Shown: positions 16,746 to 37,179 of the stretch, piece by piece
Position numbering within the stretch: position 1 is the first letter of the stretch
Layout of the letters: every line of letters starts with the position of its first letter
Program-made: the position numbers and the translations under genes
Origin: an uncultured Bacteroidia bacterium
GTDB taxonomy: Bacteria > UBA4055
Length of the DNA: 64,000 nucleotides
Direction of reading: 5' to 3'
Assembly (NCBI GenBank): GCA_964648295.1
Contig: CAZYNH010000004.1
Coordinates: 613-64,612 of the forward strand
The notes under the pieces: generated by a model
What the model saw: only the letters and a program-made list of their open reading frames with translations
Databases searched by the model: none
What the model was told of the DNA's origin: nothing

Positions 16746-18284
16746 CTAATACTTAGGCTCTTTTCCCGCTTCTTTCAGAAGCTTATTTATCTCTTCCTTC
16801 AGTTCGGTCATTCTGATCTCCCTGTCAACCATAAGTTCGTTGAACTTTCTAAGCTCTTCTGCTTTGGCAATAAGATCATCATGTGCTATTTTTCTTTTGG
16901 ATATGTCTTCAAAAACAACGGCAAATTCATTTTCCCGTGTCCTGTACGCATAAACTTTGTACCATTTCTTGAGTACGGACGAATAATTCTCAAAAGTTTC
17001 GGGAATACCTGATCTTGTTATTTCGGCATACTTTTCTATCCAAAAATCCTCAACACCCGGCAAAATTTCTTTACAATTTCTGCCAACTACCTTTTCTCTT
17101 ACCAGTCCCGTCATTCTCTCAAAGCTCGGATTTATCTCAATGAACCTGTAGTCAACAGGATTACCGTTTTCATCGTAGATCATTTCATGGACTGCCATAG
17201 CAAGTTCCATTTCGTTTATCATAGCTCTGATCTTTTCATCACTTTCGGCTTTCAGCTTTAAATAGTCTGAAATGTCCTTTCCAATTCCTATGAGACACAC
17301 CTCTTCTTCCATATTTACGGTTTTTGCAGAAAATAATGCTTTGAATTCTTCATCGTTTCTTTTTAGTCTGACTTCCGCATTATTGATTTCGCCCTTTTCT
17401 TCCATTATATCTACGATATTTTCTCTTTGTCTGACATCCGCCCAGATATTTAACTCAGGTGTTTTCTTGCCGATAACGGTTTTATCAAAATTGAATAAAT
17501 CATAAAAACTACGATTGGCATTCAGTATCAGTCCGTCAGATAATCTCGTCAGAGTAACAGGATCAGGTATTGTGTTGAAAAGAAGCTCGAAGTGTTCCTT
17601 TGATATTCGCAATTCTTCGGATACTTTTTCATTTACAAGAACAATATAACCGAAAGTCCATATTATACTAACTACAAGACCTGATGAAAATGATAATAGA
17701 TTGACAGGATGAGAATCGAACATATCCTTCAGATCATAAAGATTGTTTACAACAGCGTATAGTCTAAGTACCAGTACTGCTGAATAAATGATAAAAGTAA
17801 ACGAAAGCAGTTTTTGAAGCTTCTTCCTTTTTCCTGAATTTTTATAAAGGCTCAACCCCACTAAAATTGAATATACGAGCAGATATAAATTGACAGTAAA
17901 AGATCTGATAGCAAGATCGTCTTTAAAAAAACTGAAAAATACGAGTACAAATAAATAGACCGCTGAAGTTATTATGATCGACCGGTAATTACGCGGTAAT
18001 CCGAGATATTTTAGAGTACCCAGATACAAGGATATGATCGCTGATAAAAGAAATGTGTTTTGAAAGACTACCACAAAGTTAAAAATGCTTTGAAAATCCC
18101 TGAAAAACATGACAGAGAATCCTAATGATTCGAAAATGCTCCACAGAAGCCAGTATTTAATGTCTTTATAATTTTTATTGTGTTTCAGCTGATGTGAAAA
18201 GACCACGATCTGAATTAACCGTGTAAGAACCATTATCATTATGATCGTCTTTATGTCCGGAACCATGATCGTTACCCCAAGCAT
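16746..18284 (-). CDS. Polytopic membrane PAS sensor protein with no output domain
   Basis: About six N-terminal TM helices, two PAS-like regions, then a C-terminal coiled-coil stub (LMVDREIRMTELKEEINKLLKEAGKEPKY). No HisKA or HATPase. Confidence 0.6.
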   Translation of the reverse strand: MLGVTIMVPDIKTIIMIMVLTRLIQIVVFSHQLKHNKNYKDIKYWLLWSIFESLGFSVMFFRDFQSIFNFVVVFQNTFLLSAIISLYLGTLKYLGLPRNYRSIIITSAVYLFVLVFFSFFKDDLAIRSFTVNLYLLVYSILVGLSLYKNSGKRKKLQKLLSFTFIIYSAVLVLRLYAVVNNLYDLKDMFDSHPVNLLSFSSGLVVSIIWTFGYIVLVNEKVSEELRISKEHFELLFNTIPDPVTLTRLSDGLILNANRSFYDLFNFDKTVIGKKTPELNIWADVRQRENIVDIMEEKGEINNAEVRLKRNDEEFKALFSAKTVNMEEEVCLIGIGKDISDYLKLKAESDEKIRAMINEMELAMAVHEMIYDENGNPVDYRFIEINPSFERMTGLVREKVVGRNCKEILPGVEDFWIEKYAEITRSGIPETFENYSSVLKKWYKVYAYRTRENEFAVVFEDISKRKIAHDDLIAKAEELRKFNELMVDREIRMTELKEEINKLLKEAGKEPKY

Positions 18285-18323: not shown

Positions 18324-20195
18324 TCAAATATCATATTTTTCTTCCTTACCCAGTTCTTTTAAAAGTTCGTTCACTTCCTTTTTGAGTTCGATCATCTTCA
18401 ATTCTCTTCCGACCATAAGAGAATTCATTTCTGTGAGCTCATAGTTCTTTTTTCTCATTTCCTCTTTATAAGCTTTTTCTTCGGTAATGTCTCTTGCTGA
18501 AGATATTCCGCCAAGAATATTTCCTTTTTCATCTTTATTGACTTTACACCACCATGCCAGCAATCTGACTTTGCCGTCTTTTCTTCTCTGATAGCTTTCT
18601 ACATAGATAACATCCTCCTTACCCCTGAATAACGGCTCGACCATGTCATAAGTATTTTGCTCACCCTCAAAATAATAGGATGCTTCCTTTCCGATAACAT
18701 CGTCCCCGAAGAATTCGTATCCTGCTTTATTCGCCCATGTGTATAGCTTATTATTATCAACTTCCATTATAATTTCAGGTACAGTTTCAAGAACAGCGCT
18801 ATGTTTAAATGCTAAACTCATCAGACTTTCTTCCGCAGCTTTTTGCTCGGTAATATCTCTGAATACACAATATGTTTGTTTGAATCTGCCGCTGAAATCA
18901 TAAGCCACAACACCTTCAAATATGACATTTATATAGTCACCGGATTTTTTTTTAAGAGTGAAATGAATATCGTTAACAGTTCCTGAAACTTTAAATTGAG
19001 GAAAACGATTCCTGAAAGTTTCGATCATGTCTGGATGAAGCAGATCTCCGAACCATTTTCCGATAACATCCTCCCTGTTATATCCCAGTATAGAAAGCCA
19101 TTTCGGATTTACATCTATGATCAGACCGTTCTCATCAAGAGACTGATACGGAACGGGAGCATAGTCATACAGGGATTTGAACTTTTTTTCGCTTTCAATC
19201 AGTTCGTTCTCCATGATCTTAAATTTCGTTATTTCTGTTGTCATTCCGCAGACACCCGAAATGATACCGTTTTCTTCTGTTACAGGAAACTTTACTGATA
19301 GAAAATATTTTTTACCATCACCAGTTTCTAAGATTTCTTCAATTTCGACAGCTTTTCCCGATTTAAGTACATTCATATCATTATTATAAAATCTATCCGC
19401 ATTCTCTTTTGAAAAAACTTCATGATCTGTTTTTCCGATCACGTTCTCACGCCTCAGACCGGTGGCCTCTTCCCATCTGCCGTTGATTAAAAGGTATTTG
19501 CCATTCTTTTCCTTTACGAATACCAGTGCGCCGCTGTTCTCGATTAGTTCGGAAAGGAATCTTTCATTTTTCTTAATACGGTTTACATATCCTGCTTTTT
19601 CCAGGTTGTCTGAAATGATCTTGCCTATCAGGATAGTGGCTATCGGATAGATTGTTATTACCGGCAAAGCGAGATTCTCGATCGTTTTCCATACCGCATC
19701 TTTCGGTAAAGTGAACATCAGAAGAATCATTGCGGCGTGTACAATTATTCCCAATAGAAGGAGTATGGTAACGCTTAACTTGTGACCTTTACGGTAAATT
19801 CTGTAATGGAACAGCAGCCCTATGATCGCCGATGCTGATATGACAGAGACTCCCATTACTGCCCCGCCGCCTCCCATTTGAATGCGAAATAGAGCAGCCA
19901 TAACTGCGCTAATTAAGGCTGATACGGGTCCGAAGAACAGTGCACACAAGCTGATCACTACCGATCTGCCGTCAAAAATTATGCCGGGCGCGAAATTAAC
20001 CGGATAAAGCAGGCCTATTACGGCGACCGAACCGAAGAGCAGGCCGTGGAGTACCGATTTTTGAATATCGGAAATTTTCTCCCTCTGCCCGATAAATGCC
20101 GTGACTACGCTCAAAGCCACCAGCAGCGAAAGGTTATATGTAAGCTGCAGAAATATCATACCGGCACTTCCAAGAATACTAAAATTAATCCTCAC
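18324..20195 (-). CDS. Membrane sensor with 5TMR-LYT-like N-terminus and about three PAS domains, no output domain
   Basis: Five TM helices with a GxxFDGR-type motif (IIFDGRSVV) as I recall for LytS/YhcK-type receptors; PAS regions; C-terminal stub (LMVGRELKMIELKKEVNELLKELGKEEKY) homologous to the tail of the previous gene. Confidence 0.6.
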   Translation of the reverse strand: MRINFSILGSAGMIFLQLTYNLSLLVALSVVTAFIGQREKISDIQKSVLHGLLFGSVAVIGLLYPVNFAPGIIFDGRSVVISLCALFFGPVSALISAVMAALFRIQMGGGGAVMGVSVISASAIIGLLFHYRIYRKGHKLSVTILLLLGIIVHAAMILLMFTLPKDAVWKTIENLALPVITIYPIATILIGKIISDNLEKAGYVNRIKKNERFLSELIENSGALVFVKEKNGKYLLINGRWEEATGLRRENVIGKTDHEVFSKENADRFYNNDMNVLKSGKAVEIEEILETGDGKKYFLSVKFPVTEENGIISGVCGMTTEITKFKIMENELIESEKKFKSLYDYAPVPYQSLDENGLIIDVNPKWLSILGYNREDVIGKWFGDLLHPDMIETFRNRFPQFKVSGTVNDIHFTLKKKSGDYINVIFEGVVAYDFSGRFKQTYCVFRDITEQKAAEESLMSLAFKHSAVLETVPEIIMEVDNNKLYTWANKAGYEFFGDDVIGKEASYYFEGEQNTYDMVEPLFRGKEDVIYVESYQRRKDGKVRLLAWWCKVNKDEKGNILGGISSARDITEEKAYKEEMRKKNYELTEMNSLMVGRELKMIELKKEVNELLKELGKEEKYDI

Positions 20196-20199
20196 TTGA

Positions 20200-20643
20200 T
20201 TACGCTTCGCTTATCTCCGGATTCTCCTCGTTCAGAATACCCCAGAAGTATCCTATACTTTTGACAGCTTTAAAGTACTGATCGATATCTATAGGCTTGA
20301 CCACATAAGCTGACGCGCCGGCCTGATAAGATTCGATCACATCATGTTCGTAATTTGATGAACTGAACATTACGACCGGGATCTTTTTTAAAATTTCGTC
20401 CCTTTTGACTTCTTTTAAAAATTCGACGCCGTCCATTCTCGGCATCTTTTTGTCGAGTATTATGACAGCAGGATTTTCGGGCTGCCTGCCTTCGAACTTC
20501 CCCTTTCTTAAAAGGAAGTCGATCCCTTCAGCGCCGTCGCTGATTACAGCGATCATTCCTTTAAAACCCTCTCTCAAAGCCCTGACCGTAAGCTCCACAT
20601 CATTCTGATCATCTTCGATCAGCAGGATGAATTTTGAGTTCAT
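20200..20643 (-). CDS. Single-domain response regulator (CheY/Rcp1-like receiver)
   Basis: ILLIEDDQNDVE, VIILDKKMPRMDG, VVMFSSSNYE, YVVKP. Confidence 0.85.
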   Translation of the reverse strand: MNSKFILLIEDDQNDVELTVRALREGFKGMIAVISDGAEGIDFLLRKGKFEGRQPENPAVIILDKKMPRMDGVEFLKEVKRDEILKKIPVVMFSSSNYEHDVIESYQAGASAYVVKPIDIDQYFKAVKSIGYFWGILNEENPEISEA

Positions 20644-20644
20644 T

Positions 20645-23221
20645 TTATTTCCCTCCCCCGTTTTGTACCGGCAAAGTGAAGTAGAAAGACGCGCCCTTGC
20701 CCTCTCCGTCCGACTCAGCCCATGTTCTTCCGCCGTGCCTTGAAATTATTCTTCTTACATTCGCAAGTCCTATGCCTGTTCCCGGAAATTCTTTTTCGAG
20801 ATGCAGCCTCTGGAAAATCCCGAACAGTTTGTGCTTGAATTCAGGATTGAATCCGACCCCGTTGTCTGTTATGGAAAATATATATTCTCCGTTCTTCTCA
20901 TCGCAGCTGACGGATATCTCTGCCGGAGCTTTTCCTTTTGTATATTTGCAGGCATTATCTATCAGATTTTTCCATACGATCGTAATCAGGTTCCTGTCAG
21001 CATTTACTGCCGGCATATCGCCAGTGCGTATTTCAACATTACGGTTATCTTTACAGTCTTTATAAGAATCGAGCACTGATCTGAGCACTTCACCCATATT
21101 GAACTTAGATATAAATATCTCCTGCCTGCCCGTTCTTGAAAGCATCAGCAGGTCGTCTATCAGTCTTTCCATCCTGTGAGCGCTTGAAGTTATCCTTGAA
21201 AATGTTTCTTTCGACCTTTCGTTCAATACTTCCGGATTTTCTTTCAAAAAGAAGTCCGTGAACCCGATAATATGCCTTACTGGAGCTCTTAAATCATGTG
21301 AGATCGAATAACTGAAAGATTCAAGTTCTTTATTTGCATGCTCAAGCTGGGATGTTCTTTCCGCGACTTTTATTTCAAGTTCCGCATTGAATTCTCTCAG
21401 CTTTTCCTCAATTCTCTTTCTTTCAGTTATATCGTAGAAGACACCGTAAGTGCCTATAACATTCCCTTTTTCGTCCAGTTCGGGGCTCGCGGCGACCTGT
21501 ATAGTCTTTTTAGTGCCTTTCGCTGTTATTATATCGAGTTCATACCTTGTTGATTGACCTTTCTGCCTGTTTGATGTTTCAGCGAGTATTTTTTCTTTTG
21601 TCTCACCTGAAATAAAATCCAATAGCGACCTGTTTGTAAGACCGCCTCTTTCAACCTCGAATATCCTTTCAGCGCTTTCGTTAGTAAAAATAAAATTCTC
21701 GTTTTTATCTACTATCCCAATTCCGTCGTTAATATTATGAATAAGCCTGGAATACTTTTCTTCATTATCCTTCAGCTCCTTTTCGATCCTTTTACGTTCG
21801 GTAATATCCCTGAAAATGGACTGATAGCTTCCGTCTGTCATCATCTTGGTTTTCATTTCAATATTAACAATCGCATTGCCCGGCTTTAAAATGTCTCTTT
21901 CCGTAACTACCGTTCTGCCTTCATTCAACAGATCGAACCTCAGGGGATTTTTTTCAATGCTTTCTTTAGTGAAAGGTACCGCTGTTACATATTTGCCGAT
22001 CAGCTCTTCTTTTTTCATTCCTATCAGCGAGCATGCCATCTCATTGACTTCGGTTATATAGCCGTCGTGGGTACCGAGAAGTATCCCGTCAGCTCCGAAT
22101 TCGATCAGGTTCCTGAACCTTTCTTCCGATATTGCCAGCTCTTCTTTGTGCTTAAGCTCTTCAAGTGCTTCTTTAGCCTTCTCTTTCCGGTATTTGTAGT
22201 AAAGAATTACCGAACCCGTAAGGAAAAGAGCGGCAAGTAAAGAAAGCGCAAACTTTGCTCTTTTATGCTCCCCGGCAAGATGGTCTTCGTACAAAAATCC
22301 CTCTATTTCGAAATCCTGATCTATCATGCCCACTCTGATAAAAGTCTGGGCTATATGATCCCATCGCCCCCTGCTCATGTTGCCCAGATCTAACAGCTCA
22401 GGCATTATAAGTTTTTTCATCTGCCTGTACTCATACATCAGATGCTCATATTTCAGGCCCGGTTTATATTTCAATATTATTTTGATCGTCTCTTCAGGAT
22501 GATCCATTGCATAGCGCCACCCTTTGAGAGAAGCGTCACGAAAGGCTTTGACCTTTTCCGGATCTTTTTTTATCAACTTTTCGGATGTAAAGAGGCAGTC
22601 CCCGTAAAAATCTACGCCATAAGTAACGGGTCTGATGTAGCCGAATGTGTTTTCAGTCTGCCCGGGAAGGTATGTCATGTCGGTAATGTATCCTGTTGAG
22701 GCGTCAGCCTTACCTTCAAGAACATCCTGGTAATTTCCGTTGAACTCGATGATCTCTACTTTATCTATAAGCCCTTCGTTGAGAAGCATGGACCTGATTT
22801 CTACATTCTTTAAGCCCATCATTATTTTCTTTCCTGTAAGCTGAGAAAGATATTCGATGCCGCTTTCTTTGTTGACGATCAGTGCTACAGGAGAATGCTG
22901 GAAGACCGCAGCGAGCACTGTTACCGGAAGCCCTTTTGATCTGTCAACAAGGATCGAGGGCGTCTGAACACCGTAGGAAGCCCTGCCTGAAACCACTTCA
23001 TCCGCGACATCCGTGTAAGGCCCCCCCTCTATTATCTCAACATCAAAACCGGCCTTTTCATAAAACCCCAGCTCTTTAGCTGCGTAATAACCCGCAAACT
23101 GGTACTGATGATACCAGCGCAGCCGGAGTTTTATTTTATCTTTCTCATCCGTACCGGCATTCAAAGCTGACTGCATTAGAAAGATCAGCAAAAAGAAAAT
23201 AATTACATTTTTTTTCTTCAA
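20645..23221 (-). CDS. Sensor histidine kinase with periplasmic NMT1/SsuA-like binding domain, TM helix, PAS domains, HisKA, HATPase_c
   Basis: Signal peptide; periplasmic domain (LRLRWYHQYQFAGYYAAKELGFYEKAGFDVEI); TM helix; PAS; HisKA (YSISHDLRAPVRHI); HATPase (ITDNGVGF, GTGIGLANVRRI). Confidence 0.8.
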   Translation of the reverse strand: MKKKNVIIFFLLIFLMQSALNAGTDEKDKIKLRLRWYHQYQFAGYYAAKELGFYEKAGFDVEIIEGGPYTDVADEVVSGRASYGVQTPSILVDRSKGLPVTVLAAVFQHSPVALIVNKESGIEYLSQLTGKKIMMGLKNVEIRSMLLNEGLIDKVEIIEFNGNYQDVLEGKADASTGYITDMTYLPGQTENTFGYIRPVTYGVDFYGDCLFTSEKLIKKDPEKVKAFRDASLKGWRYAMDHPEETIKIILKYKPGLKYEHLMYEYRQMKKLIMPELLDLGNMSRGRWDHIAQTFIRVGMIDQDFEIEGFLYEDHLAGEHKRAKFALSLLAALFLTGSVILYYKYRKEKAKEALEELKHKEELAISEERFRNLIEFGADGILLGTHDGYITEVNEMACSLIGMKKEELIGKYVTAVPFTKESIEKNPLRFDLLNEGRTVVTERDILKPGNAIVNIEMKTKMMTDGSYQSIFRDITERKRIEKELKDNEEKYSRLIHNINDGIGIVDKNENFIFTNESAERIFEVERGGLTNRSLLDFISGETKEKILAETSNRQKGQSTRYELDIITAKGTKKTIQVAASPELDEKGNVIGTYGVFYDITERKRIEEKLREFNAELEIKVAERTSQLEHANKELESFSYSISHDLRAPVRHIIGFTDFFLKENPEVLNERSKETFSRITSSAHRMERLIDDLLMLSRTGRQEIFISKFNMGEVLRSVLDSYKDCKDNRNVEIRTGDMPAVNADRNLITIVWKNLIDNACKYTKGKAPAEISVSCDEKNGEYIFSITDNGVGFNPEFKHKLFGIFQRLHLEKEFPGTGIGLANVRRIISRHGGRTWAESDGEGKGASFYFTLPVQNGGGK

Positions 23222-23231
23222 CGATACTCCT

Positions 23232-25088
23232 TTAATTTTTCGGCAGACTGAAATAGAAGCACGCGCCTTTTCCCTCTCCTTCGGATTCGCCTCTTACACT
23301 TCCGCCGTGCCTCGACACTATTCTTTTAACAGTAGCAAGGCCTATCCCGGTTCCGGGAAAATCCTTCTCGGAATGCAGCCTCTGGAAAACCCCGAACAGC
23401 TTCTGAGAGAACTGCGGATCGAAACCCGCTCCGTTATCTTTAACGAAATACTCGTACCCGTTGCCAATATCGTTACAGCCTATGCTTATTATGGCATTTT
23501 TGTTCTGCGAAGTATATTTGAAAGCGTTCCCGATCAGATTTTCCCAAACAAGCCTGAACAGCGCGGGATCGCATTCTACAGGCGGAAGTGCTGATATTTT
23601 CCATTCTATTTTCCTGTGAGGCTCTGCAGAAGTGATCTCTCTGATGATAAACTCCGCTAACGGTTTCATATTCGTCCGCTTGGATGAAAGTTCCACCCTG
23701 CCTGTTCTGGAAAATTTTAACAGATCATCAATGAGCCTTTCCATTTTATCGGCTGAATATCGGATCTTTTCGATAGCCGATGCCTGTTCTGGAAGGATGC
23801 TTTTACCTAAAGACTTCGATAAAATGTCCGAAAATCCGGATATGTGCCTTACGGGCGCTCTCAGATCGTGCGAGACAGAGTAGCTGAAAGATTCGAGCTC
23901 TTTATTCAGATATTCCAGCTGGAGTGTTCTCTGGATCACTTTATCCTCGAGAGATTCGTTTATCCGTTTAATCTCTTTTTCGGCTTCCATCCGGAAGGTA
24001 ACATCCCTGACTATGGCCTGAAGATAAGTTTTGCCTTTCAGGACCACCCTGTTCAGAGAGACCTCCGCGTCAAAATCGGCGCCTGTCTTTTTCCTGTGCT
24101 TCCAGTAAAACCTTTGCGGCCTTCCTGCCAGAGCCTCGTTTATGTGCTCAAGTGCGGACATCACCGTGTTTCTTCCGTCAGGCTGGACATGCGGCGAAAA
24201 TTCCATCGGCTTGTGGTTGACCATCTCGTTCCTGTCCGCGCACTCGAACATTCTGACCGCCTGATCATTGCACTCGATAAATGTATCGCCGTCCATAAGG
24301 TAGATCGCGTCGTTCGATTCCTCAAAGAGCGTTCTGTATTTTTCCTCGTTCTCCTCAAGTTCCCGTTCTATCCTTTTTCTTTCGGTAATGTCGCGGTAAA
24401 TAGACTGATATGATCCGTCCTCCATCATTTTGGTCTTCATCTCGATGATTATCTCGGACCCGTCCCGCCTTCGTATGGCTCTTTCACTTATGACGGTCTT
24501 ACCTCCCTTTAAAAGATCGAACCTAAACGGCGATTTTTCGATGCTTTCTTTTGTGAAAGGCATTTTGCTTATGTGAAGGCTTAAGATCTCTCTTTTGCTC
24601 ATTCCGAAAAGTTCGCAGGCGGCCTGATTCGCCTCAGTTATGTAGCCTTCGTGAGAACCCAGCAGTATCCCGTCCGCGGCGAATTCAATTGTTCTTCTGA
24701 ATTTTTCCTCTGAGTCTTTCATACCCTTAAAATAAATGTCCTTTTCGGAAATATCCTCCGCCGTGACAATCATTCCGCAGTATTTCCCGTTATCCAGAAG
24801 AGGCGTCATCCAGCCTCTGTGAACGAATTCTTTTCCGGCGGAGTCTTTCAGCCTTACCTCGTACTCGCCCGGGAACAGGTTCCTCTTAACTTTTCCGTAA
24901 CACTCAAGAAATTCCTTATTGCCGGGTCTGTCCATGTCTTTGAATACTTCAAGACCTGTAAATCGCTCGGACGAAACTCCCGCTATGACTGCCATAGCCT
25001 TGTTTATATAAACCACTCTGTCATCAGGATCGGTCACCCATACACCTGACGGAAGTTCGTCGAGGGTCTTTTTCAGCAAGTCATTCAT
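23232..25088 (-). CDS. Cytoplasmic multi-PAS sensor histidine kinase
   Basis: No TM helix; about three PAS regions, the middle one close to a PAS of the preceding gene; HisKA (YSVSHDLRAPVRHI); HATPase (VKDNGAGF, GTGIGLATVKRI). Confidence 0.85.
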   Translation of the reverse strand: MNDLLKKTLDELPSGVWVTDPDDRVVYINKAMAVIAGVSSERFTGLEVFKDMDRPGNKEFLECYGKVKRNLFPGEYEVRLKDSAGKEFVHRGWMTPLLDNGKYCGMIVTAEDISEKDIYFKGMKDSEEKFRRTIEFAADGILLGSHEGYITEANQAACELFGMSKREILSLHISKMPFTKESIEKSPFRFDLLKGGKTVISERAIRRRDGSEIIIEMKTKMMEDGSYQSIYRDITERKRIERELEENEEKYRTLFEESNDAIYLMDGDTFIECNDQAVRMFECADRNEMVNHKPMEFSPHVQPDGRNTVMSALEHINEALAGRPQRFYWKHRKKTGADFDAEVSLNRVVLKGKTYLQAIVRDVTFRMEAEKEIKRINESLEDKVIQRTLQLEYLNKELESFSYSVSHDLRAPVRHISGFSDILSKSLGKSILPEQASAIEKIRYSADKMERLIDDLLKFSRTGRVELSSKRTNMKPLAEFIIREITSAEPHRKIEWKISALPPVECDPALFRLVWENLIGNAFKYTSQNKNAIISIGCNDIGNGYEYFVKDNGAGFDPQFSQKLFGVFQRLHSEKDFPGTGIGLATVKRIVSRHGGSVRGESEGEGKGACFYFSLPKN

Positions 25089-25092
25089 TTAA

Positions 25093-27495
25093 TTATTCTC
25101 CGGTTTTCGGCAGTGTGAAATAGAAGCAGGCTCCTTTCCCTTCGCCTTCAGACTCTCCTCTTACAGCTCCTCCGTGCCTTTCGACAATGCGCCTTACATT
25201 TGCCAGACCGATCCCGGTTCCCTCGTATTCTGATTTGCCGTGAAGCCTGTAGAACACTCCGAAAAGTTTATCTGAGTAATTCATATCGAACCCCGCGCCG
25301 TTGTCTCTGACAAAAAATTCAAAACAGTCCCCCTTATCTTTACATCCAATCATTATTTCCGGATTTGGAGTTTTTGAACTATATTTTAAAGCATTTTCTA
25401 TCAGGTTAAGCCAAACAGTCCTGATAAGGTTCTCGTCGCAAAAAACAACCGCAGGCAGATCATTATACTCGATCGAAGCTTTTGAGTATTTTTCTTCACA
25501 TAGAAGTTTTTCTTTTAAATCTTTCAGAATATCCTGAATATTCACAGCTTTCCTGTTAAGGTCAGCGCGACCTGTTTTTGAATACTCAAGCAGATCGTCT
25601 ATCAAAGCTCCCATATCAAGAGCGCTTGAAGAAATCTTATTCAGATATTCAAGAGCTTCTTTGCCGCAGTTTGAACATATCTGCTCCATTGAGCGGGCGA
25701 AGCCGTTTATGTGGCGAAGGGGCGCTCTTAAATCGTGCGATACGCTGTACGCGAACGACTCCAGTTCCCTGTTCGACAACTCAAGTTCTTTAGTGCGTTC
25801 GACAACCTTTCTAGAAAGCTTTTCGTTCAGGATTTTGATCTCCTCCTGAGCCGCTTTGATATCTGAAACATCATAGAACATCACTGCCATTCTGTTTTTT
25901 TCTATGCCGAAAGCGACGATGTTAAAGCAGCCTTTGATACCCTTATGGTCATAAGGAAAGCTGTCAGTAGTCCAGTTAACCCCTTCCGCAGCGACTTTTT
26001 TATACATCTCCGGGATATCGGTGACGGCAAGCATCGGGAACGCCTCTTCTATTGTTTTTCCCAAGAACCTGCCGTGATCGGTCCCGATTATTCTGTCGGC
26101 CGCAGGATTGTAACCGGAAAAGACAAGACTGCCGGCACTTGTAAGTTCGTAGACATAAATTCCAAACGGGGCTGATTCGACTATCTTTCTGAAAGAACTT
26201 TCGCTGGCTATTCTTTTTTCTTCAGCATTGTATTTCTCGGTAACATCGGAAAAGACCATGATCACCCCGTGAATGTTCCCGCTTTGGTCTCTGATCGGAG
26301 CGGCGGAATCCGCTATCTGGAATTCCCTGCCGTCTCTGGCGATTAAAACCGTGTGGTTCGCAAGCCCGACGGTTTTTCCTTTTGCGATCACCAGTTCTGC
26401 GGGATTTATTACCTCCTGTCTCGTATCGGCATTCACTATCCTGAAGATTTCACTGAGGGGTTTTCCCATAGCTTCTTCAAGCTTCCATCCGGTAAGTTCC
26501 AGTGATGTTTTGTTCATGTTGACGATATTGCCGGATATGTCGGTGCTGATCACTCCGTCGCCGATGGATTCGAGCGTGATCCTCAGGTTCTCTTCGCTTT
26601 TGATCAGCGAAAGGGTCTTTTTCTTTATCTCCCGTTTAAGTATCAGCATAAAAAACGCAAGCACAATTAACGCTGAGATGATTATTAGCATCAACGATCT
26701 TAGCCATACCGGAAAAATATTTTTCTGAAAGGAGCTTTTATTGAATAAAGCGTCAAGCGCGGAATAATAAACGGATTTTTTGTCGGATTTTAACTCCGAA
26801 AGCCTGCGGTCCAGTCTTTCGATTATTTTATCGGCGTCGGGATTATTTTTCCTAAGAGCGTATTGCATTCTGGCCGGCTGAAGGATAACAGGTGTAGATT
26901 CAATTGAATAATATTTTTCATTATCGCTGCCGAAATCCTTGTCAACGAGTCCGGCGTCGATTGAACCCAGCTCGAGGTAACTGAAAATGTCTTTATAACT
27001 TTCGAGTTCAGCTACGGTGGCGTTTATCTGGAAATCCCTGAGCAGCCTTTTCAGCCCGTCGGGACCTTCAAGATCAAAACTGTTCCTGAGCCCGCCTATC
27101 CTCATATTCTCAAGATCGAGAATGCTCTGAATTACGGCGTTTTTGTTCCTGTATAATTTCGTCCAGCTGAGATATACCGTTTCGTTATTGAATGAATACT
27201 TCTGTTTCCTCGCGGGAGTCACGCCTGTATCTGTCATTATGTCAATATCACCGTTCTCGAGCCTGCGCAAGCATTCATCCCATGTCCCGTAAACCCATTT
27301 AAGATCCCAGTTCTCCTTTTCCGCTATCGCGACGGTTATCTCATACCAGAAACCGGCGAGTTTCCCGTTCTCGTCCATATAAATCTTTGGCGGGTTGTCG
27401 TAAGCACCCGCGCGGATAGTCTCCGCAGATGATACTGACAATGAGAATATTAAGAACAAAAATAAGAAATCCCTGAGAACTTTAGCTTTCATCAT
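25093..27495 (-). CDS. Sensor histidine kinase with periplasmic solute-binding (SBP family 3-like) domain, TM helix, PAS, HisKA, HATPase_c
   Basis: Signal peptide; periplasmic domain (ETIRAGAYDNPPKIYMDENGKLAGFWYEI); TM helix; PAS; HisKA (YSVSHDLRAPLRHI); HATPase (VRDNGAGF, GTGIGLANVRRI). Confidence 0.85.
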   Translation of the reverse strand: MMKAKVLRDFLFLFLIFSLSVSSAETIRAGAYDNPPKIYMDENGKLAGFWYEITVAIAEKENWDLKWVYGTWDECLRRLENGDIDIMTDTGVTPARKQKYSFNNETVYLSWTKLYRNKNAVIQSILDLENMRIGGLRNSFDLEGPDGLKRLLRDFQINATVAELESYKDIFSYLELGSIDAGLVDKDFGSDNEKYYSIESTPVILQPARMQYALRKNNPDADKIIERLDRRLSELKSDKKSVYYSALDALFNKSSFQKNIFPVWLRSLMLIIISALIVLAFFMLILKREIKKKTLSLIKSEENLRITLESIGDGVISTDISGNIVNMNKTSLELTGWKLEEAMGKPLSEIFRIVNADTRQEVINPAELVIAKGKTVGLANHTVLIARDGREFQIADSAAPIRDQSGNIHGVIMVFSDVTEKYNAEEKRIASESSFRKIVESAPFGIYVYELTSAGSLVFSGYNPAADRIIGTDHGRFLGKTIEEAFPMLAVTDIPEMYKKVAAEGVNWTTDSFPYDHKGIKGCFNIVAFGIEKNRMAVMFYDVSDIKAAQEEIKILNEKLSRKVVERTKELELSNRELESFAYSVSHDLRAPLRHINGFARSMEQICSNCGKEALEYLNKISSSALDMGALIDDLLEYSKTGRADLNRKAVNIQDILKDLKEKLLCEEKYSKASIEYNDLPAVVFCDENLIRTVWLNLIENALKYSSKTPNPEIMIGCKDKGDCFEFFVRDNGAGFDMNYSDKLFGVFYRLHGKSEYEGTGIGLANVRRIVERHGGAVRGESEGEGKGACFYFTLPKTGE

Positions 27496-31370: not shown

Positions 31371-33893
31371 ATGACTGCATTATCAGACAGAATAGAAACG
31401 GAATTCCTGCCGTTCGTAAATAAGCCTTTGCGTTACTCGGGTTCTGAAAAGAACACAATTACGAAGACGCACGAAGGAAAGACCAGCATTGTCCTCATAT
31501 ACCCCGACAAATACGAGATAGGCATGTCCTACAAGGGATTCCACATCCTGTACCATGTTCTGAACAGTTTTGAGGATATTGTATGCGAAAGAGCCTTTAT
31601 CCCTGAAAAGGACGCCTGTGATCTTTTGAGAGAGAAGGGCATTCCTCTGTTCAGTCTGGAAACAAGGACGCCGCTTTCCGGCTTCGATTTCGTAGGCATA
31701 ACTCTCCCCTACGAACTGTGCTTTACCAACATACTTGAAATACTTTCACTTTCAGGAATTCCGCTTTACGCAATGGATAGGAAAGGGAAAAAACCTCTTG
31801 TTCTTGGAGGAGGGATCAACGCGATAAACCCGGAGCCCGTCGCGGACTTCTTCGACCTGTTCCTGATAGGTGACGGGGAGGAACGCCTGCCTGAACTGTT
31901 AAAGCTGTACGCAAAAGAAACGGCGGGAGCAAAGGACAGGACCGGTCTGCTCAAGGAACTTTCACAACTTGAAAGCATATATGTACCGTCGCTGAAGACG
32001 GAGAAAACAAAGGTTAAGAAAGCCGTGGCGATGCTCAAGGCGGAGAACTACACGGACAGCCCGGTAGTCCCTTTAATGGAGATCACCCAGGACAGGATCT
32101 CCGTTGAGGTCATGCGCGGCTGCGACCGCGGCTGCCGGTTCTGTCAGGCGGGCTACTATTACCGTCCTTTACGGGAGCGCCCGACCGCCGATATTGTCAG
32201 GCAGGCGTCCTCCATGATCGCCCGCTCGGGCTGGAAAGAGCTGACGCTCCTTTCCCTCTCGACCTCAGATTACACCAACATCGAACCTCTTCTTGAAACA
32301 CTTTATGAAAAATGTTCGATGAAGGGTGTAAAACTCTCGTTCCCGTCCATGCGCGCCGAATCCTTCACCGATGAAATAGCTTTCATCGCGTCGATAGGAA
32401 GAAAAAGTTCCTTCACATTCGCGCCCGAGGCCGGCTCGGAGAGGATGAGGATGATCATCAACAAGCCGATCGAACTGTCATCAATACTCGATGTGCTGGA
32501 AAAAGTGCTCAGGCTCGGCTGGAAAAGCATAAAGCTTTATTATATGATCGGCCTGCCCTTTGAGACGGACGAGGACATCATCGAGATGGCGGAAATGATC
32601 AACGAGATCGGCAGGTACAGCAGCTCCTACGGCAGGATCAAGATCAACGTGTCCATCTCCCCTTTCAACCCCAAGCCGCACACTCCTTTCCAGTGGGCCG
32701 AGCAGGCGCCTCTGAGCGTGTTCAGGAGCAGGATCGGCATACTTCTGTCAAGGGTGAGGACCGCAAATGTTCACATTACCTGGCGCGATCCCGAAGTGTC
32801 CATACTCGAGGCGATATTCTCAAGAGGCGACAGAAGACTCTCCAAAGCGGTTCACGAGGCTTACAAGCAGGGCGCGCTCTTCGACGCGTGGACGGAAAGC
32901 TTCGACTTCGGACTGTGGAAGAAGGTATTCAAAAAGACCGGCGTAGATCCCGACGACTACCTGTCCGAAAGAAAAGTGAACGAACCTCTTCCCTGGGACT
33001 TTATAGACATCGGCGTAAGCAGGGAATTCCTCGAATCGGAATGGGATAAGGCCCGCAGCGAAAGTCTCACGAAATACTGCCTTAAACAGTGCCAGAAATG
33101 CGGGATCGAAAAGGAATATAAATGCAGGGAGCTTCTCGCGGAAAAAGTGAAGGCTCCGGGAATAAAAGAGATCGTAAAGGAACATTCGGAAGTGCTGGGT
33201 CACAAGGCCGAACCCGTTCCCAGAGCTGACGTAAGATACAGAGTAAAGTTCAGAAGGCTGAGATCTTCAAGATTTCTGTCGCAGCGTAACCTGAGCGCGT
33301 ATATCGAAAGGGAGTTCTTCATTCACGACATACCGGTCGCATACACGAAAGGCTTCCATCCCATGCCCGTACTCAGTTTCTCGCACCCTCTCCCGTTCGG
33401 CTTCACCTCCGACTGCGAGTTCGCCGACATCGGCTTCAAGGACGATTACATCGGGGACATCGAATCCGACATGAGAAAGGTATTCTCGAACATCACCGAA
33501 TTCGTCGAGGTCAAAAAGCTCTCCGGCAAGTTCACTCCGCTGATGCATTTCATCGACTATACGGAATATTACATCATCATCCCCGACAACGCAGCCGAAT
33601 ACTTTACGGAATGTATCCTCAAATTCAGATCCAAGAAGAAGCTGATCATAACGAGGGAGAACAAAGGCAAGGTGAAAGAGATCGACATCGTGCCTTTCGT
33701 GCCCAAGCTGGAGTTCGACGGGGACAACGTCATCGCGGGAATAGGCTTCATAGACGGTGCGTCGGTCAAGATGAGCGAGATTTTCGAGCATGTATTTAAA
33801 ATATCCGAAGAGGATTATTACAGATATCCTATAAAAAAGATAAGAACGGGAAAGATGTCAGAGGCAGGACTGATCGACCCGTTCGGCAATTAA
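31371..33893 (+). CDS. B12-binding domain radical SAM protein fused to a C-terminal DUF2344-like domain (TIGR03960/TIGR03936-type)
   Basis: Radical SAM CxxxCxxC motif (CDRGCRFCQAGYY), B12-binding-like N-terminus, long conserved C-terminal extension. Locally higher GC than the kinase island. Confidence 0.75.
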   Translation: MTALSDRIETEFLPFVNKPLRYSGSEKNTITKTHEGKTSIVLIYPDKYEIGMSYKGFHILYHVLNSFEDIVCERAFIPEKDACDLLREKGIPLFSLETRTPLSGFDFVGITLPYELCFTNILEILSLSGIPLYAMDRKGKKPLVLGGGINAINPEPVADFFDLFLIGDGEERLPELLKLYAKETAGAKDRTGLLKELSQLESIYVPSLKTEKTKVKKAVAMLKAENYTDSPVVPLMEITQDRISVEVMRGCDRGCRFCQAGYYYRPLRERPTADIVRQASSMIARSGWKELTLLSLSTSDYTNIEPLLETLYEKCSMKGVKLSFPSMRAESFTDEIAFIASIGRKSSFTFAPEAGSERMRMIINKPIELSSILDVLEKVLRLGWKSIKLYYMIGLPFETDEDIIEMAEMINEIGRYSSSYGRIKINVSISPFNPKPHTPFQWAEQAPLSVFRSRIGILLSRVRTANVHITWRDPEVSILEAIFSRGDRRLSKAVHEAYKQGALFDAWTESFDFGLWKKVFKKTGVDPDDYLSERKVNEPLPWDFIDIGVSREFLESEWDKARSESLTKYCLKQCQKCGIEKEYKCRELLAEKVKAPGIKEIVKEHSEVLGHKAEPVPRADVRYRVKFRRLRSSRFLSQRNLSAYIEREFFIHDIPVAYTKGFHPMPVLSFSHPLPFGFTSDCEFADIGFKDDYIGDIESDMRKVFSNITEFVEVKKLSGKFTPLMHFIDYTEYYIIIPDNAAEYFTECILKFRSKKKLIITRENKGKVKEIDIVPFVPKLEFDGDNVIAGIGFIDGASVKMSEIFEHVFKISEEDYYRYPIKKIRTGKMSEAGLIDPFGN

Positions 33894-33905
33894 AAGGAGG
33901 GATTT

Positions 33906-35501
33906 ATGTTCAAGTGGCTGTTCAGGATCGTTCTGTTCGTAGTATTCGTGGTCGTGGTCGGTCTTTTCGCTTTAAAGATCTACCTGGAGAAATATTTCGA
34001 CAAGGACATTATCGTCAAAGCGGTGGAATCCGAGACCAATTCGAGGTTCGAGCTTTCGGACGTGAGTATCGGGATATTCTCTTTCACTCCGTCGCTGGAG
34101 ATCGACGGGATCAAGCTCGGAAAGAGGGATAAGTACGCGGACGAAAAAGTGCACATCGACGAAAGGCCGAAAATGGAAGGCGAGATCGTCTCCGTCGAGA
34201 AGATCGAGCTGAAAGCCAACCTGATCCCGCTCTTCGACAAGAGGTTCGAGCTGAACAAGTTCATCATCCAGAGGCCGGTCGCAAGACTTGTTCTCGGCGA
34301 AGAGGGACAGGACAACCTTTCTCCCCTGCTCGGTCAGCCTTCCGGAAAAGCTCAGGCGGCGGCTCCGGCTGAAACTGTAGAAGCGGAAAAAGAAGAGAAA
34401 GCAGTTGAGCAGGAAGAAATAAAACAGGCTGAACCGCAACAGGAATTTTCCGCGAAGGACGTCCCGATCGCCGCTACTATGAACCAGATCGGCGTGGAGA
34501 ACGGCGAGGTCGATATTTTCTTCAAGACAACGCAGCAGCGCTTCCTGATCTCGGACTTTTTCATGGTCATTGACAAGATCGACATAGACCCGAAGGACCT
34601 TGTCAATCACAATAAAGCTACCGTCACTTTCAACACGAACATGGCTATATACAACAAGGAAAAGTCCGAACAGGCGAAACTCGGAATCAAGTCGAACGCC
34701 GTTCTCAGACCGCTCGACCCCGAAACAGGCAAACCGAACCCCGAAGCCGTTTACGGCGTAACGCTTACGAAAGGTTCCTTCATTCAGGCGCTCGTGGCAC
34801 TTGAGAAAGCCAAATCTTCAATGGAAACGCTCGAGAAGGTCGGCATCAACCTGGACATCCTGAGCAAGAAAGCAGTACTCAGCAAGGACGCGGAAACCAG
34901 GATCAGCTACAAGGAAGGCAGAGTCGCGTTCGAGGAGGATCTCAAGGTCCTGACCGAGGATTATGATATCGTCATAAGGAAGGAAAGCTGGTTCAACGTA
35001 ATGAACAATCAGCACAATTTTAAAGGCGACGTCACGGTATCCAAAGCCGAATCCGACAAACTCCTCGCGCAGACCGACAAATTCATCGACGACAGCATGA
35101 AAGACGTCAAAATTAAAGGCGTCAAGATAGACAAGCAGGTGATCAAGGACGAACTCCTCTCCGGGCTCTTAAAAGACGGAAGAATATATATCGAGTTCAC
35201 ATCCAAGGGCGACATATCAGACCCCGACGTCAAAGTATCCTTCATGCCCGTCAGCCTCACCGACCTCATAAAGAAGAAAGCCGGCGCGCTCGTTGACCAG
35301 AAGATCGAGGAAGTAAAACAGAAGGTCAATGAAGAAGTCGATAAAGCCAAAGCCGAAGCTCAGGCCAAAATAGACGAAGAGAAAGCCAAAGCCGAAGCCA
35401 AAGCAGCGGAGGAAAAAGCGGCAGCCGAAGCCAAGGCTAAAAAAGAAGCCGAAAAAGCGGCAGCCGAAGCCAAGAAAAAGATCAAAATACCCGGATTCTA
35501 A
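33906..35501 (+). CDS. AsmA-family-like membrane-anchored protein with Lys/Ala/Glu-rich C-terminal tail
   Basis: N-terminal TM anchor (FRIVLFVVFVVVVGLFAL), AsmA-like N-terminal region, low-complexity tail (KAKAEAQAK...AEAKKK). RBS AGGAGG upstream. Confidence 0.5.
   Translation: MFKWLFRIVLFVVFVVVVGLFALKIYLEKYFDKDIIVKAVESETNSRFELSDVSIGIFSFTPSLEIDGIKLGKRDKYADEKVHIDERPKMEGEIVSVEKIELKANLIPLFDKRFELNKFIIQRPVARLVLGEEGQDNLSPLLGQPSGKAQAAAPAETVEAEKEEKAVEQEEIKQAEPQQEFSAKDVPIAATMNQIGVENGEVDIFFKTTQQRFLISDFFMVIDKIDIDPKDLVNHNKATVTFNTNMAIYNKEKSEQAKLGIKSNAVLRPLDPETGKPNPEAVYGVTLTKGSFIQALVALEKAKSSMETLEKVGINLDILSKKAVLSKDAETRISYKEGRVAFEEDLKVLTEDYDIVIRKESWFNVMNNQHNFKGDVTVSKAESDKLLAQTDKFIDDSMKDVKIKGVKIDKQVIKDELLSGLLKDGRIYIEFTSKGDISDPDVKVSFMPVSLTDLIKKKAGALVDQKIEEVKQKVNEEVDKAKAEAQAKIDEEKAKAEAKAAEEKAAAEAKAKKEAEKAAAEAKKKIKIPGF
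35330..35480 (+). repeat. Low-complexity GCC/AAA/GAA-rich coding repeat (K/A/E-rich tail of the AsmA-like gene)
   Basis: Repeated units such as aaagccgaagcc / gcagccgaagccaag visible in the sequence. Confidence 0.5.
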
Positions 35502-37093: not shown

Positions 37094-37179
37094 AATGTTT
37101 GTAATTATACATAACTAACGACAATATGTATAATATTTTACTATAAGTCAAGCAATATTTATAATATTTTACGCTTGAA

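What the first reader, a model, noticed from the sequence alone, without database searches (positions are those of the whole stretch)
20645..27495. Recent modular duplication among three adjacent kinases
The C-terminal kinase cores of genes 20645-23221, 23232-25088 and 25093-27495 are near-identical in places (AESDGEGKGASFYFTLP, GESEGEGKGACFYFSLP, GESEGEGKGACFYFTLP). A ~130-aa PAS segment is shared between the first two (EKLRRLIEFGADGILLGTHDGYITEVNEMA... versus EKFRRTIEFAADGILLGSHEGYITEANQAA..., I estimate over 60 percent identity), while their N-terminal sensor regions are unrelated, indicating domain shuffling.
Basis: seen in the sequence. Interest (0 to 1): 0.45.

Follow-up and report, generated by a model that had tools for sequence, protein, structure and literature searches.

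The report
Old tandem kinases swapping PAS modules
Three neighbouring sensor kinase genes are ancient copies of one another, not recent ones, that have traded whole sensor (PAS) modules over time while keeping their kinase cores; this is a clear but ordinary example of how bacteria rewire their sensors.

Summary
K3 (25093-27495), K2 (23232-25088) and K1 (20645-23221) are intact minus-strand PAS/HisKA/HATPase_c kinases. They are followed by one stand-alone receiver gene (20200-20643). K1 and K2 share a 121-aa PAS module at 63.6% identity, and their N-terminal sensors are unrelated.

"Recent" is wrong. Nucleotide identity peaks at 70-76% in blocks of 385 nt or less. The longest exact match is 17 nt, and synonymous sites are saturated. 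The same K3-K2-K1-receiver array occurs in eight related metagenomic genomes (Delongbacteria/UBP11-like); UBA4055 has the array without K1. Kinase cores form three clades by gene position, so the triplication predates these lineages.

"Domain shuffling" is right, and more specific than proposed. PAS domains fall into 13 discrete types that reassort among the three genes. The window's K1 carries module E, which sits in K2 in five other genomes. Its junctions map to the DIT motifs on either side of a 125-aa unit that the window's K2 lacks. The spacing from the last DIT motif to the phospho-accepting His is 45 residues wherever it could be scored in K1 and K2 orthologues.

This is a well-resolved instance of a known process (Alm et al. 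2006), of modest interest.

The parts
25093..27495 (-). K3: sensor histidine kinase, 800 aa. Layout is signal peptide, SBP_bac_3 periplasmic domain, TM segment, PAS module F, PAS module H, HisKA (His587) and HATPase_c.
   Evidence: ORF. Pfam hits. Module types. Core falls in the K3 clade with 100% bootstrap.
26206..26598 (-). K3 PAS module F (aa 300-430)
   Evidence: 64-83% identical to module F in the K3 or split K3 sensor-half genes of L002, L004, L006, L007 and L008.
25846..26205 (-). K3 PAS module H (aa 431-550)
   Evidence: 61-73% identical to the second PAS of K3 in L002 and L004. Other genomes carry D, I or K at this position.
23232..25088 (-). K2: cytoplasmic histidine kinase, 618 aa. 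Layout is PAS B, PAS A, PAS C, HisKA (His407) and HATPase_c.
   Evidence: An identical protein (P0001) is on record on a 507.9-kb contig.
24714..25088 (-). K2 PAS module B (aa 1-125)
   Evidence: Present at the N-terminus of every K2 orthologue, at 68-74% identity to the window copy.
24351..24713 (-). K2 PAS module A, K2-type copy (aa 126-246).
   Evidence: 63.6% identical to K1 aa 365-485 and 79-88% identical to most K2 orthologues (66% to L006). Falls in the K2-type clade.
23979..24350 (-). K2 PAS module C (aa 247-370). It directly follows module A here; module E is absent between A and C.
   Evidence: Relative to the B-A-E-C kinases (L004, L012, L013), His407 versus His532 gives a difference of exactly 125 aa.
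20645..23221 (-). K1: sensor histidine kinase, 858 aa. Layout is signal peptide, NMT1/THI5-like periplasmic domain, TM segment, PAS A, PAS E, HisKA (His642) and HATPase_c.
   Evidence: Core falls in the K1 clade with 97% support.
22247..23221 (-). K1 periplasmic NMT1-type sensor (aa 1-325)
   Evidence: Pfam PF09084, E = 5e-48. 55-63% identical to the K1 N-termini of L004, L006, L007 and L013. It is replaced by a dCache-type sensor in L001, L002, L012 and L014.
21767..22129 (-). K1 PAS module A, K1-type copy (aa 365-485)
   Evidence: 69-74% identical to the K1 orthologues and 58-64% to the K2 copies. Diagnostic columns are K1-type up to 'YQSIFRD'.
21407..21766 (-). K1 PAS module E (aa 486-605). 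This is the relocated cassette. Measured DIT to DIT, the unit runs from aa 472 to 597, which is 125 aa.
   Evidence: 74-80% identical to the third PAS of K2 in L002, L004, L012, L013 and L014. Its 5' linker 'ITERKRIEKELKDNEEKY' is K2-type. The sequence after its DIT motif, 'KLREFNAEL', is K1-type.
20200..20643 (-). RR1: stand-alone receiver protein, 147 aa, starting 1 nt after the K1 stop. It is the presumed common phospho-acceptor of K1-K3.
   Evidence: Pfam Response_reg only. Closest solved structures are 5ic5, 5brj and the phytochrome response regulators RcpA, RcpB and Rcp1. It is conserved at the end of the array in the related loci that extend far enough.

Best explanation
K3, K2 and K1 are old tandem paralogues of a PAS/HisKA/HATPase_c kinase.

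Operon and output
- They lie in a conserved operon that ends with a single Rcp1-like stand-alone receiver (RR1).
- The operon belongs to a larger array of 12 co-directional signalling genes.
- The triplication predates the divergence of the sampled Delongbacteria/UBP11-like genomes (shown).
- Since then the three kinase cores have evolved as separate, position-specific orthologous lineages (shown).
- The cores keep identical residues at the DHp positions that are known to set partner specificity. The three sensors therefore most likely converge on the same receiver, a many-to-one arrangement (inferred).

How the input regions evolve
- Periplasmic sensors and whole PAS units are inserted, deleted and moved between the three genes as cassettes.
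- Each cassette runs from one DIT motif to the next, a unit of 115-129 aa.
- The 45-residue coiled-coil spacing from the last DIT motif to the phospho-accepting His is preserved (shown).

What happened in the window's lineage
- One 125-aa cassette, module E, now sits in K1 between a K1-type module A and a K1-type signalling helix.
- It carries a K2-type upstream linker, and K2 lacks exactly this unit (shown).
- The most likely route is recombination between K1 and K2, seeded in the conserved 3' end of their shared module A and resolved just after the DIT motif of E (inferred).

The 64% identity of the shared module A reflects slow evolution of that module, not a recent origin.
For: Age of the duplication
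- dS is saturated in all domains, nucleotide identity is at most 76% and the longest exact match is 17 nt.
- The K3-K2-K1-RR order, next to the same Peptidase_MA_2/PD40 gene (and the same Ribul_P_3_epim and radical-SAM genes in L012), occurs in L001, L002, L004, L006, L007, L012 and L013. It is partly present in L014, and in L008, which lacks K1.
- The core tree has three clades by gene position: K3 100%, K1 97%, and K2 98% apart from L004_K2.
- Module A splits into K1-type and K2-type clades with 95-97% support.

Module typing
- There are 13 PAS types. Identity is at least 52% within a type and at most 35% between types.
- E is found in K2 in five genomes and in K1 in the window and L007. D is found in K1 or K3.
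- Further combinations exist in database proteins: A-D, A-J, A-D-J, A-E-J-C and E-J-D.
- Periplasmic sensors also reassort between gene positions.

Junctions of the E cassette
- Window K1 is K1-type up to 'YQSIFRD', K2-type through the linker and module E, and K1-type again from 'LREFNAEL'.
- E in window K1 is 74-80% identical to E in the K2 genes of other genomes. Orthologous modules B, A and C fall in the same range, 72-88% in most genomes.
- K1 is 125 aa longer between module A and the His than the A-only K1 of L002. K2 is 125 aa shorter than the B-A-E-C K2 genes.
- The DIT-to-His spacing is 45 aa in all 17 K1/K2 proteins scored.

Shared partner
- Positions His+7, +8, +11 and +12 read R-H-G-F in K1, K2 and K3. 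They read RAGF, RISF and RMGF in K4, K5 and K6 of the same array.
- The gaps K3-K2-K1-RR1 are 4, 10 and 1 nt.
Against: - The direction and mechanism of the E relocation are inferred from parsimony and junction sequence, not observed. No nucleotide trace of the event remains: the A and linker region is only 71% identical between K1 and K2.
- Some NMT1-type kinases elsewhere also carry E (P0122 A-E-J-C, P0123 E-J-D). E could therefore have entered K1 from another allele rather than from the resident K2.
- L004_K2's core and L006_K2's module A do not sit cleanly in their expected clades.
- The trees are neighbour-joining trees on 111-245 columns from 10 genomes.
- Convergence on RR1 rests on gene order and four residues. 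Those residues may simply be conserved across this kinase subfamily.
Confidence: 0.8

Rival explanations
1. One reading: the three kinases arose by recent duplication, or are kept similar by ongoing gene conversion, within this genome.
For: K1 and K2 align over 497 aa at 47% identity, with a 64% block. The genes are adjacent and co-directional.
Against: dS is saturated, nucleotide identity is at most 76% and the longest exact match is 17 nt. Every paralogue has orthologues in the same position in other genomes, where K2 identity is 47-75%. The trees group sequences by gene position and not by genome.
Confidence: 0.03
2. The similarity is only family-level. Any two PAS-HisKA kinases would look like this, and there is no specific relationship among the three.
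For: The quoted C-terminal strings overlap a motif found in 111 of 120 homologues. The 'PAS-B' regions of K1 and K2 are only 29% identical.
Against: K1-K3 cores are 47-55% identical to each other but 27-43% identical to the four other kinases in the same array. Module A is 64% identical between K1 and K2, whereas identity between PAS types never exceeds 35%. Orthologous arrays are conserved in other genomes.
Confidence: 0.04
3. Module E reached the window's K1 by recombination with DNA from a diverged relative, for example an NMT1-A-E-... kinase allele like P0122. It did not move from the resident K2, and the loss of E from K2 was a separate deletion.
For: NMT1-type kinases with E exist (P0122 A-E-J-C, P0123 E-J-D). 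K2 genes without E also occur where K1 lacks E, as in L001 and L008, so loss from K2 happens independently. L007 shows a second, differently bounded placement of E in K1.
Against: E in P0122 is only 69% identical to its best typed match, whereas window E is 79-80% identical to the K2 copies in L002, L012 and L014. The linker upstream of the window's E matches the K2-type tail of module A almost residue for residue. The matching +125 aa in K1 and -125 aa in K2 within one genome is simplest as a single relocation.
Confidence: 0.12
4. Assembly artefact: the repeats were collapsed or chimerically joined in a metagenome-assembled genome.
For: The source appears to be a metagenome-assembled genome (hits named 'MAG: Candidatus Delongbacteria').
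Against: No repeat in the region is similar enough to mis-assemble; the maximum is 75% over 208 nt. All three ORFs are intact with complete domain sets. The same protein sequences are on record on a 507.9-kb contig. The architecture is paralleled in independent assemblies.
Confidence: 0.01

Closest known systems
Histidine-kinase family expansion with domain shuffling (Alm, Huang & Arkin 2006, PMC1630713; the Desulfovibrio PAS-kinase expansion in their Fig. 8)
   Same: The kinases are paralogous PAS-HisKA kinases whose upstream PAS domains fall into sequence subfamilies that are shuffled among paralogues. The kinase domains give a coherent tree. Transmembrane and soluble members are mixed (for the paper; here).
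   Different: The paralogues here are not a recent lineage-specific expansion. They form a fixed three-gene tandem array, co-transcribed with a receiver and conserved across the sampled genomes. Shuffling occurs between fixed orthologous positions, and the junctions can be mapped to DIT motifs. In the Desulfovibrio case the PAS next to the kinase is conserved among paralogues. Here the last PAS is the variable one (E, C, D, J, L, M or A).
Phytochrome-type two-component pairs (Cph1/Rcp1; bacteriophytochrome kinase plus a single-domain receiver such as RcpA or RcpB)
   Same: The H-box is SHDLRAP. The kinase core is closest to 8f71 (annotated only as a histidine kinase), followed by bacteriophytochrome kinase modules 8uph and 9ys3, at E about 1e-31 to 1e-33. 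RR1 is closest to 5ic5, 5brj, RcpA, RcpB and Rcp1, at E from 1e-39 to 1e-20. The receiver is stand-alone, has no output domain and is encoded directly downstream.
   Different: No phytochrome (PAS-GAF-PHY) photosensory module is present. The inputs are periplasmic solute-binding-type domains and generic PAS modules. Three kinases share one receiver gene.
Many-to-one kinase networks (Bacillus KinA-E to Spo0F; Vibrio LuxN/LuxQ/CqsS to LuxU). This comparison is from general knowledge.
   Same: Several sensor kinases with different input domains plausibly feed one small receiver protein. The predicted specificity residues are identical in the three kinases.
   Different: The kinases here are tandem paralogues in one operon with the receiver. 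Convergence is inferred only. No downstream phosphorelay component (Hpt or Spo0B-like) was identified.
PAS-kinase coiled-coil linker rules and the DIT motif (Moglich, Ayers & Moffat 2009, design of the YF1 kinase).
   Same: PAS modules end in a D-I/V-T motif followed by a helical linker to the DHp. The linker length is strictly conserved at 45 aa, or 80 aa in some K3 genes, which is 45 plus 35, or five heptads. This fits register-dependent signalling.
   Different: This is natural module exchange, not engineered. Several PAS units are stacked in series.

Membership tests
Class I (HisKA-type) sensor histidine kinases | A DHp domain with an H-box containing the phospho-accepting His | tested here: met
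   Pfam HisKA is hit in K1, K2 and K3 with E from 6e-10 to 8e-13. The H-box is SHDLRAP, with His642, His407 and His587.
Class I (HisKA-type) sensor histidine kinases | A C-terminal GHKL ATP-binding domain (HATPase_c) | tested here: met
   Pfam HATPase_c is hit with E from 1e-22 to 2e-19 and nearly full profile coverage in all three proteins. The closest solved structures are kinase cores 8f71, 8uph and 3dge.
Class I (HisKA-type) sensor histidine kinases | Autophosphorylation and phosphotransfer activity | not testable with these tools
   This requires biochemistry.
Recent lineage-specific expansion (the 'recent duplication' of the finding) | Paralogues within the genome are each other's closest relatives and synonymous divergence is low | tested here: not met
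   The core and module A trees group by gene position across 10 genomes. dS is 1.5 or higher, or undefined.
Kinase family evolution by domain shuffling (sensu Alm et al. 2006) | Related kinase domains carry different sets or orders of upstream signalling domains | tested here: met
   K1 is NMT1-TM-A-E, K2 is B-A-C and K3 is SBP3-TM-F-H. Orthologous positions in other genomes carry other combinations.
Rcp1-like (phytochrome-associated) single-domain response regulators | A receiver domain only, with the acidic pocket, phospho-accepting Asp, and conserved Ser/Thr and Lys | tested here: met
   The only Pfam hit is Response_reg, covering aa 6-127 of 147. The sequence shows 'IEDD', 'IILDKKMP', 'VVMFSSS' and 'YVVKP'.
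Rcp1-like (phytochrome-associated) single-domain response regulators | Closest sequence relatives are phytochrome-linked receivers | tested here: met
   5ic5 scores E = 3e-39, 5brj 1e-35, and RcpB, RcpA and Rcp1 about 1e-21, all ahead of CheY at about 1e-11.
Rcp1-like (phytochrome-associated) single-domain response regulators | Partnered with a phytochrome photoreceptor kinase | tested here: not met
   No GAF, PHY or PAS_2 domain was found in K1-K3. RR1 resembles this family in sequence, but its kinases are not phytochromes.
Many-to-one kinase network | Several kinases phosphorylate the same receiver | not testable with these tools
   The evidence is indirect only. There is one receiver gene, 1 nt downstream of K1. 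Residues R-H-G-F at His+7, +8, +11 and +12 are identical in K1-K3 and in nearly all orthologues. K4-K6 differ at these positions.

The most novel reading that the evidence does not exclude
The conserved K3-K2-K1 array may work as a natural cassette system for rewiring sensors. Under this reading the shared, slowly evolving module A and the DIT linkers are recombination landing pads. Whole PAS units of 115-129 aa, and periplasmic sensors, would then be repeatedly cut and pasted between adjacent paralogues without disturbing the 45-residue register to the catalytic His. The three-kinase operon would sample new input combinations much faster than point mutation allows. The window would capture one such event, E moving from K2 to K1, and L007 an independent one.
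Probability: 0.2. Interest if true: 0.5.

Novelty: new member of a known kind. Interest (0 to 1): 0.27.

Why it matters
The finding corrects a tempting misreading: 64% identity in one block next to unrelated sequence looks recent, but it is an old module that evolves slowly. It also provides an unusually clean natural data set. It covers ten genomes, three fixed gene positions and 13 PAS types, with junctions resolved to a few residues. The data show that PAS modules in kinases are exchanged as DIT-to-DIT units while the linker to the catalytic His stays invariant. That supports the rules used to engineer chimeric sensor kinases. It also suggests specific chimeras, such as the A-E, A-D and A-only versions of K1, that nature has already validated. 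It does not reveal a new type of system.

Tried and rejected
- The look-up of the window's own K2 protein returned no record, so the source contig could not be retrieved.
- The single genome-contig scan gave only four loci. One was a full locus (L008, UBP11 UBA4055, which lacks K1), and the window's own genome was not among them.
- The Biopython neighbour-joining bootstrap timed out. I replaced it with my own numpy neighbour-joining and bootstrap code.
- I tested gene conversion between the window's two A modules. It is rejected by the tree and by the diagnostic columns.
- I tested whether K1 'PAS-B' and K2 'PAS-B' are diverged orthologues. They are not: they belong to different module types, E and C, with at most 35% identity between types.
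- A search with only the C-terminal tail of the kinase-less PAS proteins returned 12 short fragments and no annotation.
- The promoter and terminator scan was uninformative: 35 promoter-like sites against 22.7 +/- 4.5 expected. There are two weak minus-strand candidates upstream of K3, at 27549-27514, and no convincing terminator inside the array.
- No structure prediction was run, because fold was not in question.
Full report
**1. What is there**

The region 20645-27495 holds three intact, co-directional minus-strand ORFs. Pfam gives these layouts:

| Gene | Coordinates | Length | Layout |
|---|---|---|---|
| K3 | 25093-27495 | 800 aa | signal peptide, SBP_bac_3, TM, two PAS, HisKA, HATPase_c |
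| K2 | 23232-25088 | 618 aa | three PAS, HisKA, HATPase_c, no TM |
| K1 | 20645-23221 | 858 aa | signal peptide, NMT1/THI5-like domain, TM, two PAS, HisKA, HATPase_c |

One nucleotide after K1 comes a 147-aa protein that is a receiver domain only (RR1, 20200-20643). The gaps K3-K2-K1-RR1 are 4, 10 and 1 nt.

The block is the head of a longer run of 12 co-directional signalling genes (7477-27495), with gaps of 39 nt or less. After RR1 come:
- two kinase-less PAS proteins;
- a kinase with two SBP_bac_3 domains (K4), followed by RR2;
- a REC-PAS kinase (K5) and a PAS kinase (K6), followed by RR3;
- a hybrid kinase (K7).

**2. Check of the observation**

- The quoted strings are present. The K1 PAS string was slightly mis-read.
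- K1 and K2 align over 497 aa at 47% identity. K1/K3 and K2/K3 align at 32-36% over about 540 aa.
- For K1 versus K2 by domain: the shared PAS is 63.6% identical over 121 aa, the next PAS 29%, the DHp 55% and the CA 58%. K2 versus K3 CA is 66%.
- The N-terminal sensors are unrelated.
- The C-terminal string is partly a family-wide motif, present in 111 of 120 homologues in loose form and in 14 of 120 in exact form.

**3. The duplication is not recent**

- The best nucleotide blocks are 70% over 385 nt and 75.6% over 209 nt.
- The repeat finder reports nothing above 75% for blocks of 100 nt or more.
- The longest exact match between any two of the genes is 17 nt.
- Nei-Gojobori dS is 1.5-2.8 or undefined in every domain, which means saturation.

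Database hits place the organism among Candidatus Delongbacteria-like MAGs. The one named full locus is 'bacterium UBP11_UBA4055'.

K2 has orthologues at 47-75% identity. Their contigs show the same K3-like, K2-like, K1-like, receiver order. This applies to L001, L002, L004, L006, L007, L012 and L013, and partly to L014 and L008; L008 lacks K1. Several sit next to the same Peptidase_MA_2/PD40 gene, and L012 also next to the same Ribul_P_3_epim and radical-SAM genes, that flank the window's array.

A bootstrapped neighbour-joining tree of the DHp-CA cores (18 sequences, 245 columns) gives three clades by gene position. K3 has 100% support, K1 has 97%, and K2 has 98% apart from one outlier, L004_K2. 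The triplication therefore predates these genomes.

The K1-K3 cores are nevertheless a distinct subgroup. They are 47-55% identical to each other but 27-43% identical to K4-K7.

**4. The mosaic is real and modular**

I delimited all PAS domains with an HMM built from the window's own domains. I then clustered the 69 modules by global identity. They fall into 13 discrete types, with identity of at least 52% within a type and at most 35% between types.

| Genome | K3 | K2 | K1 |
|---|---|---|---|
| window | F-H | B-A-C | A-E |
| L001 | G-I | B-A-C | A-D |
| L012 | G-I | B-A-E-C | A-D |
| L002 | F-H | B-A-E | A |
| L004 | F-H | B-A-E-C | A-L |
| L013 | G-D | B-A-E-C | A |
| L006 | (F-K) G-D | B-A-J-C | A-D |
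| L007 | F-D | B-A-J | E |
| L008 | (F-K) G-D | B-A-C | none |

In L014, K2 is B-A-E-C-M. Entries in brackets are the separate sensor halves of split K3 genes.

- The A tree separates K1-type copies from K2-type copies with 95-97% support. The window's two copies are therefore old paralogues.
- Module A is simply the slowest-evolving module. K2 orthologues are 79-88% identical in A in most genomes (66% in L006), against 68-74% in B.
- The '29% PAS-B' comparison is between non-homologous module types, E in K1 and C in K2.
- Database proteins add further combinations: A-D (the commonest K1 form), A-J, A-D-J, A-E-J-C, E-J-D, B-A and F-C-M.
- Periplasmic sensors reassort too. K1 carries either an NMT1-type or a dCache-type sensor. 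The dCache type also appears in K3 of L004 and L014, and two SBP_bac_3 subtypes occur in K3.

**5. The event visible in the window**

Module E (K1 aa 486-605) is 74-80% identical to the third PAS of K2 in L002, L004, L012, L013 and L014. Truly orthologous modules fall in the same range. In the sampled arrays, E occurs in K1 only in the window and in L007.

Column-by-column comparison shows three segments:
- Window K1 follows the K1-type consensus through module A, up to 'YQSIFRD'.
- It then switches to the K2-type tail and linker, 'ITERKRIEKELKDNEEKYSRLIHNINDGIGIVDKNENFIF'. This is almost identical to the A-E junction in the K2 genes of L012, L014 and L002.
- After the DIT motif of E it returns to the K1-type signalling helix. 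Window K1 reads 'KLREFNAELEIKVAERT', L002 K1 reads 'RLREFNAELERKVAERT', and the K2 type reads 'EIKRINESLE.KV.ERT'.

The distance from the start of module A to the His is 125 aa longer in window K1 than in the A-only K1 of L002. The window's K2 is exactly 125 aa shorter than the B-A-E-C K2 genes.

L007's K1 carries E together with a K2-type signalling helix, so it had different breakpoints and was an independent event.

In all 17 K1/K2 proteins scored, the last DIT motif lies exactly 45 residues before the phospho-accepting His, whichever module is last. In K3 the spacing is 45 or 80, a difference of 35 residues, or five heptads. DIT-to-DIT unit lengths are specific to each type: E 125, C 129, D 119, J 115, L 125 and M 123.

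Modules therefore behave as DIT-to-DIT cassettes that preserve the coiled-coil register. The shared module A probably supplied the homology for the 5' crossover. This last step is an inference, because the DNA there is now only about 71% identical.

**6. Likely function**

- The H-box (SHDLRAP) and core are closest to 8f71, a chain annotated only as a histidine kinase, followed by bacteriophytochrome kinase modules.
- RR1 is closest to the stand-alone receivers 5ic5 and 5brj and to the phytochrome response regulators RcpA, RcpB and Rcp1.
- No phytochrome sensory module is present.
- At His+7, +8, +11 and +12, all three kinases and nearly all orthologues read R-H-G-F. These are the DHp positions that set partner specificity in EnvZ and PhoQ (established knowledge: Skerker 2008; Capra 2010; Podgornaia and Laub 2015). 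K4, K5 and K6 read RAGF, RISF and RMGF.

Together with the operon structure, this suggests that three differently tuned sensors converge on RR1. Two of the sensors are periplasmic and of solute-binding type, and one is cytoplasmic and PAS-only. This convergence is inferred and was not tested.

**7. Comparison with what is known**

Family expansion of histidine kinases with shuffling of PAS subfamilies is described by Alm et al. 2006 (PMC1630713). That work includes a Desulfovibrio PAS-kinase expansion.

The present case differs in three respects:
- It is an old array with fixed gene positions, conserved across the sampled genomes, not a recent expansion.
- The PAS adjacent to the kinase is the variable one.
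- The junctions resolve to DIT motifs with an invariant spacing to the His.

It is a new and well-resolved member of a known kind of process, not a new system.

**8. Verdict**

- 'Recent' is rejected.
- 'Domain shuffling' is supported and refined.
- Assembly collapse is excluded.
- Interest is modest.

Noticed in passing
window 16746-16880 and 18324-18470 (C-termini of the PAS-only proteins at 16746-18284 and 18324-20195); also L001 about 7385, L002 about 17714, 19001 and 20542, L006 about 6353, 19445 and 20009, L008 about 7766, L012 about 7400 and 18470, L013 about 163: Kinase-less PAS proteins in this locus family all end in the same tail of about 45 aa, 'N.LM..RE[LIV][KR]M.[ED]LK.E[IV]N.LLK..GKE.KY'. 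The tail always lies 10-16 aa before the stop, and there are 13 copies. Its start resembles the kinases' signalling helix ('ELRKFNELM' against 'KLREFNAEL'), as if a short helical tail replaces the DHp-CA. There is no Pfam match. A tail-only database search found only short fragments. The function is unknown; one possibility is a docking helix for the neighbouring kinases.
   Followed up: partly
L006 4652-8599, L008 6056-9995, L013 1-2393: In three related genomes the K3 position is split in two. A sensor half (SBP_bac_3-TM-PAS F-PAS K) ends in the tail motif described above, and a separate kinase half carries PAS G-PAS D and the core. The window's K3 is a single gene.
   Followed up: partly
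window 7477-27495, minus strand: Twelve co-directional signalling genes lie with gaps of 39 nt or less: seven histidine kinases, three stand-alone receivers and two PAS-only proteins. They probably form one or a few long operons. Each stand-alone receiver follows a group of kinases with its own DHp specificity residues.
   Followed up: partly
window 23979-24350 (K2 PAS module C): Module C is at least 50% identical to a PAS domain in kinases from many other phyla, including Verrucomicrobiota, Acidobacteriota, Bacteroidota and Planctomycetota-like MAGs. This is unusually high conservation for a PAS domain and suggests a common, conserved ligand or cofactor.
   Followed up: no
L002, L004, L006 and L007, upstream of K3: Related loci carry a divergently oriented B12-binding-domain protein (371 aa) and a 201-aa partner between the peptidase gene and the kinase array. 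Some also have an extra PAS-only gene. In the window, K3 abuts the peptidase gene directly, with a 98-nt intergenic region.
   Followed up: no
window 32001-34000 and 36001-38000: GC content swings from 0.51 (32-34 kb) to 0.36 (36-38 kb), against a background of about 0.42. This was not examined.
   Followed up: no
window 23176-23221: The database copy of K1 (P0026, 843 aa) starts 15 codons downstream of the TTG used here. The longer form gives a typical signal peptide (MKKKNVIIFFLLIFLMQSALNAG), so the 858-aa start is probably correct.
   Followed up: no
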